From Escherichia coli (lineage in GTDB: Bacteria; Pseudomonadota; Gammaproteobacteria; Enterobacterales; Enterobacteriaceae): 64,000 bases of DNA. Every line of letters begins with the position of its first letter. The stretch's first letter is position 1. Shown here one piece after another: positions 36,508-36,585 of the stretch. Location: the NCBI RefSeq assembly GCF_003334335.1, contig NZ_QOWQ01000016.1; one strand, 5' to 3'. Under the pieces are notes generated by a model. That model was not told the DNA's origin. It saw nothing but the letters and a program-made list of their open reading frames with translations, and made no database searches. Made by a program: the position numbers and the translations under genes.

Positions 36508-36585
36508 CCAGCGCTTACTCCGACAACGTCATTCGGCTTCTCCGGATGGCGTTGTCGGCAGATAACACCATAGCTATGGTTTTTT

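What the first reader, a model, noticed from the sequence alone, without database searches (positions are those of the whole stretch)
36508..36585. 9-bp inverted repeat in the treA-ycgY convergent gap
CCGACAACG ... CGTTGTCGG (about 36521-36560) forms a long-loop hairpin between convergent genes. It has no clear U-tract, so it may be a rho-dependent or protein-assisted termination signal.
Basis: seen in the sequence. Interest (0 to 1): 0.15.

Follow-up and report, generated by a model that had tools for sequence, protein, structure and literature searches.

The report
Conserved stem-loop ending the treA transcript
The repeat is the outer part of a strong 17-base-pair RNA hairpin 12 bases after the stop codon of the E. 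coli trehalase gene treA; related Escherichia species keep it at the same spot, and it is most likely an ordinary end-of-transcript hairpin.

Summary
The 9-bp arms are real (36520-36528 / 36550-36558), but there is no long loop. The interior also pairs, giving a 17-bp stem with a 5-nt loop (36520-36558). On the treA-sense strand both non-Watson-Crick positions are G·U (-28.4 kcal/mol, against -20.7 antisense).

It is the most stable 45-nt local fold in the 64-kb window. It is single-copy, identical in 3147 of 3174 E. coli records that carry it, and has no Rfam match.

A homologous hairpin sits about 12 nt after the treA stop in four other Escherichia genomes. In E. albertii all six substitutions in the shared stem keep pairing, two of them as compensatory pairs. 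In three genomes that lack ycgY the stem is 11 bp and is followed by a U-rich tail. Other genera, and about 40% of E. coli, carry textbook terminators at this position.

So this is the treA 3' stem-loop. In K-12-type strains it has no adjacent U-tract; a weak second hairpin plus T6 follows 5 nt later.

Most likely it defines and protects the treA mRNA 3' end, with RNA polymerase released by Rho or weakly at the T6. No 3'-end data for this locus could be found.

This is ordinary and of low interest.

The parts
34810..36507 (+). treA (periplasmic trehalase) coding sequence, stop TAA at 36505-36507. Its last ~70 nt are C-rich and G-poor.
   Evidence: RefSeq annotation of identical K-12 DNA. ORF list. 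Window 36440-36517 has C 30 / G 14.
36508..36519 (+). 12-nt spacer between the treA stop and the stem. Its length (11-12 nt) is kept in all five Escherichia sequences, while its sequence is only partly conserved.
   Evidence: Alignments A3 and A4.
36520..36558 (+). Hairpin 1, the finding. Left arm 36520-36536, loop CTTCT 36537-36541, right arm 36542-36558. 17 bp on treA-sense RNA (15 Watson-Crick + 2 G·U), -28.4 kcal/mol. Antisense RNA has two A/C mismatches, -20.7 kcal/mol. Extends to 36518-36561 with one bulge.
   Evidence: Homologous hairpin in L016-L019 with two compensatory pairs. 100% identical in 3147 of 3174 E. coli records.
36564..36583 (.). Hairpin 2 / palindrome AACACCATAG|CTATGGTTTT. 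Weak stem (5 bp, 4-nt loop; -3.5 kcal/mol on +, -4.0 on -). The common allele T36581G makes it a perfect 20-nt palindrome. Not conserved in E. albertii.
36580..36585 (+). T6 run directly 3' of hairpin 2 on the treA-sense strand (A6 just after the ycgY stop on the other strand). The only U-tract in the gap, 22 nt after hairpin 1. A T5 run is kept at this place in E. albertii.
36586..37026 (-). ycgY (146 aa), convergent with treA. It is an Escherichia-restricted orphan and the C-terminal remnant of a 395-aa ORF that is intact in E. albertii.
36760..37037 (+). First C-rich, G-poor stretches on the treA-sense readthrough RNA (78-nt windows with C/G 1.8-3.3). Candidate Rho loading region only; inferred.
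   Evidence: Also negative GC skew at 36700-37100.

Best explanation
Hairpin 1 is the 3'-untranslated stem-loop of the treA mRNA, read on the + strand of the window. It was inherited from the common ancestor of Escherichia. It forms in the nascent transcript just outside the footprint of the ribosome stopping at the treA stop codon, and it marks the end of the stable transcript.

In K-12-type E. coli it has no adjacent U-tract, so it probably does not release RNA polymerase efficiently on its own. Release most likely happens further downstream, either by Rho on the untranslated antisense-ycgY RNA or, inefficiently, at the weak hairpin 2 + U6 22 nt later. 3'-to-5' exonucleases would then trim back to the base of the 17-bp stem, which blocks them and stabilises treA mRNA.

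Shown: the structure, its non-random strength, its strand bias, its conservation with compensatory changes, and its positional equivalence to terminators in relatives. Inferred: the termination route and the exonuclease-barrier role.
For: 1) Strength and position. It is the most stable 45-nt fold in 64 kb and lies 12 nt after the treA stop.

2) Conservation. A homologous hairpin sits 11-12 nt after the treA stop in L016 (an 'E. coli'-labelled genome with 92% TreA identity), L017 (E. whittamii), L018 (Escherichia sp. E1V33) and L019 (E. albertii). The 11 core pairs are paired in 54 of 55 cells. Two pairs show C-G to U-A double changes and two show G·U/Watson-Crick switches. All six substitutions in the 13 stem pairs shared by K-12 and E. 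albertii preserve pairing, although the surrounding DNA is only about 75% identical.

3) It travels with treA, not ycgY. The three genomes L016-L018 lack ycgY (window ~36558-37153 is missing) but keep the hairpin.

4) Strand of function. In all four hairpin versions the treA-sense fold is more stable than the antisense fold by 2.3-7.7 kcal/mol, because every non-Watson-Crick stem position is G·U in the treA sense.

5) Positional equivalence. Citrobacter, Pluralibacter and other enterobacterial treA genes, and the alternative E. coli haplotype, have canonical stem + U-tract terminators at the same place. In L016-L018 the homologous 11-bp stem is followed by a U-rich tail such as CCGUUUUGUUUGGUUUU.

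7) Within-species constancy. Identical in 3147 of 3174 E. coli records.
Against: No mapped 3' end or bicyclomycin-sensitive region at this locus was found in the only searchable dataset. Adams et al. 2021 supplementary files 1-3 list nothing at MG1655 1,245,500-1,246,299, and the only nearby Rho region is inside the 5' part of treA at 1,247,110(-). This is uninformative rather than negative, because treA is expressed poorly in those conditions (its stationary-phase and osmotic induction is from my own knowledge, not checked here).

The 120 nt immediately downstream are G-rich rather than C-rich (C/G 0.68-0.83). C-rich windows begin about 200 nt downstream, whereas Dar & Sorek place rut sites immediately downstream.

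Covariation rests on only four distinct sequences, and both compensatory pairs come from one lineage (23 of 500 shuffles reach the observed score). Within E. coli the invariance may reflect recent common ancestry.
Confidence: 0.55

Rival explanations
1. It is a bidirectional terminator for the convergent pair. The same DNA palindrome forms a stem-loop in both the treA and the ycgY transcript and positions head-on RNA polymerase collisions in the 78-nt gap, so both genes end there without a U-tract.
For: It lies between convergent stop codons. The antisense RNA still folds at -20.7 to -22 kcal/mol, also among the strongest folds in the window. Hairpin 2 has an A-rich 5' flank and a U-rich 3' flank in both directions. 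Wang et al. 2022 (bioRxiv 10.1101/2022.10.23.513370) report that a nascent-RNA stem-loop is needed to place collisions between convergent genes. The two versions with a convergent gene next to the hairpin (K-12, E. albertii) have long stems (14-17 bp) and no U tail. The lineages without that gene have an 11-bp stem plus a U-rich tail.
Against: All wobble positions favour the treA-sense RNA and weaken the ycgY-sense RNA. The hairpin persists where ycgY is absent. ycgY is a truncated gene remnant, so selection on its terminator is doubtful. No 3'-end data are available.
Confidence: 0.2
2. The pair hairpin 1 + hairpin 2/U6 is simply an ordinary, somewhat leaky intrinsic (Rho-independent) terminator of treA. 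Hairpin 1 is a stabilising upstream stem and release occurs at the T6 run.
For: A T6 run directly follows hairpin 2. The minimum-energy fold of the whole gap closes a long composite structure whose 3' strand abuts the U run. The homologous hairpin in L016-L018 has a U-rich tail, and other relatives carry canonical terminators at this position.
Against: Hairpin 2 is very weak (-3.5 kcal/mol, 5 bp). The consensus terminator scan finds nothing in the gap, although that scan also misses the obvious terminators of relatives because of its loop limit. The common T36581G allele shortens the U run. Hairpin 2 is not conserved in E. albertii.
Confidence: 0.15
3. It is a non-functional relic or a DNA-level element. 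Either it is an ancestral terminator stem that lost its U-tract and now drifts, or it is a palindrome that matters as DNA (recombination or deletion hotspot, protein-binding site, REP-like element).
For: Two independent rearrangement end points lie within a few nt of its 3' edge. The ycgY-segment indel in L016-L018 ends at window 36554-36557. An IS1-associated deletion in strain YZ22MPE54 ends at 36560/36561. The region is a haplotype-variable spot in E. coli.
Against: All substitutions in E. albertii are structure-preserving, including two compensatory pairs. The wobble pattern is strand-specific, which makes sense for RNA and not for duplex DNA. It is single-copy, so not a REP-type repeat. 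17-nt arms are far longer than typical operator half-sites (from my own knowledge). The other haplotype junction lies inside treA, not at the hairpin.
Confidence: 0.1

Closest known systems
[quoted passage not shown]
   Same: A stable stem-loop just downstream of a gene, with no U-rich tail and no A-tract upstream. Folding energy is in or above the range of intrinsic terminators. C-over-G stretches occur further downstream.
   Different: Neither a 3' end nor Rho dependence has been measured for treA here. The first 120 nt downstream are not C-rich. The 17-bp stem is long for the class (from my own knowledge).
Canonical intrinsic (Rho-independent) terminators, as found after treA in Citrobacter, Pluralibacter and the alternative E. 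coli haplotype
   Same: Same position relative to the treA stop, and a G+C-containing stem-loop. The homologous stem in three sister Escherichia genomes (L016-L018) carries a U-rich tail.
   Different: In the window the stem is followed by CAGAUAAC, not U's. The only U run is 22 nt away, behind a -3.5 kcal/mol hairpin.
Bidirectional terminators of convergent gene pairs (SEnd-seq work of the Liu laboratory; Wang et al. 2022 preprint)
   Same: A palindrome in a short gap between convergent stop codons that can fold on both transcripts.
   Different: The fold is clearly better on one strand. It lacks the A-tract/U-tract flanks of bidirectional intrinsic terminators. Its partner gene is a remnant that is absent from several lineages which keep the hairpin.
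REP elements acting as 3'-UTR terminator-stabilisers (Harris et al. 2026 preprint)
   Same: An extragenic imperfect palindrome in a 3' UTR that could both limit readthrough and block decay.
   Different: It is single-copy in E. coli. No second copy exists in the window. It shows no resemblance beyond a CCGGATG heptamer to the REP consensus as I recall it.

Membership tests
Intrinsic (Rho-independent) terminator | Stable G+C-containing stem-loop in the nascent RNA | tested here: met
   Hairpin 1: 17 bp, -28.4 kcal/mol on the treA-sense strand.
Intrinsic (Rho-independent) terminator | U-rich tract starting within 0-2 nt of the 3' base of the stem | tested here: not met
   The flank of hairpin 1 is CAGAUAACACC, and the consensus scan finds no terminator in the gap. 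A U6 exists only after hairpin 2, whose stem is -3.5 kcal/mol. The feature is met in the sister genomes L016-L018.
Intrinsic (Rho-independent) terminator | Factor-independent release of RNA at the U-tract | not testable with these tools
   Needs in vitro transcription or 3'-end mapping.
Rho-dependent terminator with protective 3' stem-loop (Dar & Sorek class) | Stable stem-loop without U-rich tail immediately downstream of the gene | tested here: met
   Class definition from PMC6061677.
Rho-dependent terminator with protective 3' stem-loop (Dar & Sorek class) | Steady-state RNA 3' end mapped at the base of the stem | not testable with these tools
   No 3' end at MG1655 1,245,5xx-1,246,2xx in Adams et al. 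2021 supplementary file 1. Supplements of the other Term-seq, Rend-seq and SMRT-Cappable-seq papers are not held or do not list this locus.
Rho-dependent terminator with protective 3' stem-loop (Dar & Sorek class) | Bicyclomycin-sensitive readthrough downstream | tested here: inconclusive
   In the excerpt of Adams et al. supplementary file 2, the minus-strand entries adjacent to 1,247,110 (inside the 5' part of treA) are 1,232,215 and 1,256,339, so no minus-strand Rho region is listed just downstream of treA. Low treA expression in those conditions makes this uninformative.
Rho-dependent terminator with protective 3' stem-loop (Dar & Sorek class) | C-rich, G-poor (rut-like) RNA downstream of the stem | tested here: inconclusive
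   C/G is 0.68-0.83 at 36560-36677. C/G rises to 1.8-3.3 only at 36760-36877 and 36920-37037.
Bidirectional terminator of a convergent gene pair | Stem-loop between convergent stops that folds on both transcripts | tested here: met
   -28.4 (+) and -20.7 (-) kcal/mol. The gap is 78 nt.
Bidirectional terminator of a convergent gene pair | Overlapping 3' ends of both transcripts at the element | not testable with these tools
   No strand-specific 3'-end data reachable.
REP / BIME repetitive extragenic palindromes | Many dispersed copies per genome | tested here: not met
   Median of 1 place per genome, 3173-3174 genomes. No other copy in the window at up to 3 mismatches apart from its own second arm and one chance-level hit.
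REP / BIME repetitive extragenic palindromes | Match to the REP consensus with flanking GTAG/CTAC | tested here: not met
   By reading the sequence, hairpin 1 shares only CCGGATG with the REP consensus as I recall it, and no GTAG/CTAC abuts the stem. A search with that recalled consensus found no REP anywhere in the window at up to 3 mismatches; this says nothing further about hairpin 1.
Any curated RNA family (Rfam 15) | Covariance-model match | tested here: not met
   No hit in 36508-36585 even at E up to 10.

The most novel reading that the evidence does not exclude
Stem length and U-tract may trade off in one orthologous terminator, depending on its neighbour. Where a convergent gene abuts treA (K-12 ycgY; the 395-aa ORF of E. 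albertii), the hairpin is long (14-17 bp, -20 to -28 kcal/mol) and has no U tail. Where that gene has been deleted (L016-L018), the same hairpin is 11 bp (about -13 kcal/mol) with a U-rich tail. On this reading the long U-less form is a collision- or Rho-assisted terminator tuned to convergent transcription, and the locus is a natural series for testing how intrinsic and factor- or collision-dependent termination interconvert.
Probability: 0.12. Interest if true: 0.35.

Novelty: new member of a known kind. Interest (0 to 1): 0.12.

Why it matters
It matters little beyond annotation. It supplies a probable 3' boundary for the treA transcript of E. coli K-12, which the RefSeq records leave unannotated. 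It also adds one more clear example of a strong, U-tract-less stem-loop at a gene end.

The comparative series is a convenient small test bed for how terminators change when gene neighbourhoods change. It comprises the 17-bp U-less form, a 14-bp U-less form, an 11-bp U-tailed form, and an unrelated canonical terminator in about 40% of E. coli. No open question hinges on it.

Tried and rejected
- **Rfam.** A scan of 35500-37600 at E up to 10 found nothing at the site.
- **Consensus terminator scan.** It found nothing in the gap. It also misses the evident terminators of relatives because it allows loops of at most 8 nt, so it is not decisive.
- **REP or repeat family.** Rejected, because the element is single-copy.
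- **Published 3'-end data.** Adams 2021 lists nothing at the locus. Choe 2022, Dar & Sorek 2018, the Rend-seq annotation paper, the 3'-seq comparison preprint and Conway 2014 have no supplements held. The TRS and SMRT-Cappable-seq supplements have no entry for treA or ycgY. Ju et al. 2019 is not held. Full-text searches for treA + ycgY and treA + terminator gave nothing relevant to the hairpin.
- **YcgY orthologue search in species genomes.** No hits, because exact peptide words are needed. The 'divergent' YcgY proteins from the protein database are frameshift variants on identical DNA and give no covariation.
- **Metagenome pattern scans.** The scan for non-K-12 hairpin variants gave 0 hits. 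The relaxed pattern gave 22 hits, all of K-12 type.
- **3'-UTR-derived small RNA.** Considered unlikely, because there is no conserved single-stranded segment upstream of the stem and no U tail for Hfq (the Hfq requirement is from my own knowledge).
- **Common junction of the haplotype swap.** Rejected, because the B2/O157-type junction lies inside the treA 3' end at about 36449-36467.

Full report
**What is there**

The window is E. coli K-12-type DNA. Window position p corresponds to MG1655 coordinate 1,282,186 - p. treA (34810-36507, +) and ycgY (36586-37026, -) converge on a 78-nt gap.

They are only the outer part of a larger inverted repeat with 17-nt arms (36520-36536 / 36542-36558) and a 5-nt loop.

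On the treA-sense RNA the two imperfect positions are G·U, so the stem is an uninterrupted 17 bp at -28.4 kcal/mol. It extends to 19 pairs with one bulge over 36518-36561. On the opposite strand the same positions are A/C mismatches, giving -20.7 kcal/mol.

Five nt further on lies a second, weak palindrome, AACACCATAG|CTATGGTTTT (36564-36583). It has a 5-bp stem at -3.5 kcal/mol and runs into a T6 tract (36580-36585) that abuts the ycgY stop.

**Is it more than chance?**

Yes.
- The 101-nt region folds 5.5 sd better than dinucleotide shuffles.
- The hairpin is the most stable 45-nt fold on either strand of the whole 64-kb window.
- A stem this long appears anywhere in only 3.7% of simulated 64-kb sequences. 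Here it sits in a 78-nt gap after a stop codon.

**Distribution within E. coli**

The gap is single-copy and present in 3173-3174 of 5426 complete E. coli genomes. A 50-nt query spanning hairpin 1 (36514-36563) is 100% identical in 3147 of 3174 records. The common polymorphism in the gap is T36581G, outside hairpin 1, which turns hairpin 2 into a perfect 20-nt palindrome. RefSeq records annotate nothing at the hairpin, and Rfam has no match.

The other roughly 40% of E. coli carry a different haplotype. It diverges inside the last ~20 codons of treA (about 36449-36467). It has a canonical terminator (GAGCAATGCC...GGCATTGCTC followed by TTTCTT or TTTTTT), then an iron ABC-transporter operon in place of ycgY. 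A third arrangement has treA-hairpin-ycgY followed by the ABC operon.

**Relatives**

ycgY has no homologues outside Escherichia. The 'divergent' YcgY database entries are frameshift variants on identical DNA.

Searching species genomes with TreA was more useful. Four non-K-12 Escherichia genomes carry a homologous hairpin 11-12 nt after the treA stop:
- L016, labelled E. coli SCPM-O-B-8794, with 92% TreA identity
- L017, E. whittamii
- L018, Escherichia sp. E1V33
- L019, E. albertii

In E. albertii the stem is 14 bp plus two further pairs. Relative to K-12, all six substitutions in the 13 shared pairs preserve pairing, although the flanking DNA is only about 75% identical:
- two C-G to U-A double changes
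- one G-C to G·U change
- one U·G to U-A change

In L016-L018 the inner 11 pairs are kept, the outer pairs are lost, and a U-rich tail follows (for example CCGUUUUGUUUGGUUUU in L016). These genomes lack the whole segment at window ~36558-37153, which includes ycgY, so the hairpin goes with treA and not with ycgY.

The covariation count is modest. The 11 core pairs are paired in 54 of 55 cells and two pairs have changes on both sides. However, 23 of 500 shuffles reach the observed score, and there are only four distinct sequences.

In every version the treA-sense fold is more stable than the antisense fold, by 2.3-7.7 kcal/mol. This points to the treA RNA as the functional strand.

Other genera have textbook stem + U-tract terminators at the same position. 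These are Citrobacter (L020, L021), a contig labelled Chryseobacterium whose sequence closely resembles L021 (L024), Pluralibacter (L022) and an unclassified enterobacterium (L028). One Enterobacter genome (L023) has a REP-like element there.

**Mechanism**

Position, conservation and strand bias make this the treA 3' stem-loop. In the window it lacks the adjacent U-tract required of an intrinsic terminator. The only U run sits behind a very weak stem.

Its anatomy matches the stable, U-less stem-loops that Dar & Sorek found at the steady-state 3' ends of Rho-dependent E. coli transcripts. They showed these protect against PNPase and RNase II (PMC6061677).

I therefore favour this sequence of events (confidence 0.55):
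- RNA polymerase reads through the hairpin.
- It is released downstream by Rho, or inefficiently at hairpin 2/U6.
- The RNA is trimmed back to the stem, which stabilises treA mRNA.

The Rho step is inferred. The first 120 nt downstream are G-rich and C-rich windows begin about 200 nt away. The one searchable Term-seq/bicyclomycin dataset lists nothing at this locus, only a Rho region inside the 5' part of treA.

The rivals are:
- a bidirectional or collision-type terminator for both convergent genes (0.2; for the concept)
- a plain leaky tandem intrinsic terminator (0.15)
- a relic or DNA-level element (0.1)

**Comparison with known kinds, and verdict**

It works like a 3'-end-defining stem-loop. 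It fails the U-tract criterion of intrinsic terminators and the multi-copy criterion of REP elements. It meets the structural criterion of the Rho-associated protective stem-loops, but their experimental criteria could not be tested.

It is a new, unannotated member of a known kind. Interest is low at 0.12.

The one mildly interesting point is the comparative series, in which the same orthologous hairpin is long and U-less next to a convergent gene and short and U-tailed where that gene is gone.

Noticed in passing
window 36586-37026 (-); L019 4267-5454 (-): E. coli ycgY (146 aa) is the C-terminal remnant of a longer gene. In E. albertii NBRC 107761 a 395-aa ORF ends at the same place. YcgY aligns to its residues 250-395 with 62% identity, E 6e-66. 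Neither protein hits Pfam or NCBIfam. DNA homology between K-12 and E. albertii stops at about window 37080. A 2026 screen reports that ycgY overexpression raises the nalidixic acid MIC more than 12-fold (PMC12924614).
   Followed up: partly
window ~36449-37153; L002-L004, L015, L025: The treA 3' flank is a haplotype-variable spot. About 40% of complete E. coli genomes have a divergent treA C-terminal tail, a canonical terminator and an iron ABC-transporter operon instead of hairpin + ycgY. A third arrangement carries ycgY followed by the ABC operon. In two of the strains examined (L003, L004) treA is annotated as frameshifted.
   Followed up: partly
window 36564-36583 (SNP at 36581): The common allele T36581G makes a perfect 20-nt palindrome AACACCATAGCTATGGTGTT next to the ycgY stop. 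It was seen in 5 of 6 aligned genomes chosen for divergence and in 7 of 22 metagenome contigs. In the 86-nt gap search, 596 of 3175 E. coli records differ from the window by 1-4 bases, which probably includes this allele. The palindrome is absent in E. albertii. Its function, if any, is unknown.
   Followed up: partly
window 36554-36561; L007 2485-2510; L016-L018 ~4241-4283: Two independent rearrangement end points fall within a few nt of the 3' edge of hairpin 1. The loss of the ycgY segment in L016-L018 ends at 36554-36557. In strain YZ22MPE54 an IS1A element abuts 36561, and the genes between ychF and the hairpin, including treA, are not annotated there. This could be coincidence or a fragile or selected boundary.
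   Followed up: partly
MG1655 1,247,110 (-) = window ~35076, inside treA: Adams et al. 2021 list a strong bicyclomycin-sensitive (Rho) termination region inside the 5' part of treA: Rho score 15.1, p = 6e-24. This suggests premature termination of treA, or of dhaM readthrough transcripts, in LB.
   Followed up: no
window 37159-37194: A 13-bp inverted repeat AAAGCGGATAGCG / CGCTATCCGCCTT lies downstream of ymgE (on the - strand). It is conserved in L016-L018 and looks like the ymgE terminator hairpin.
   Followed up: no
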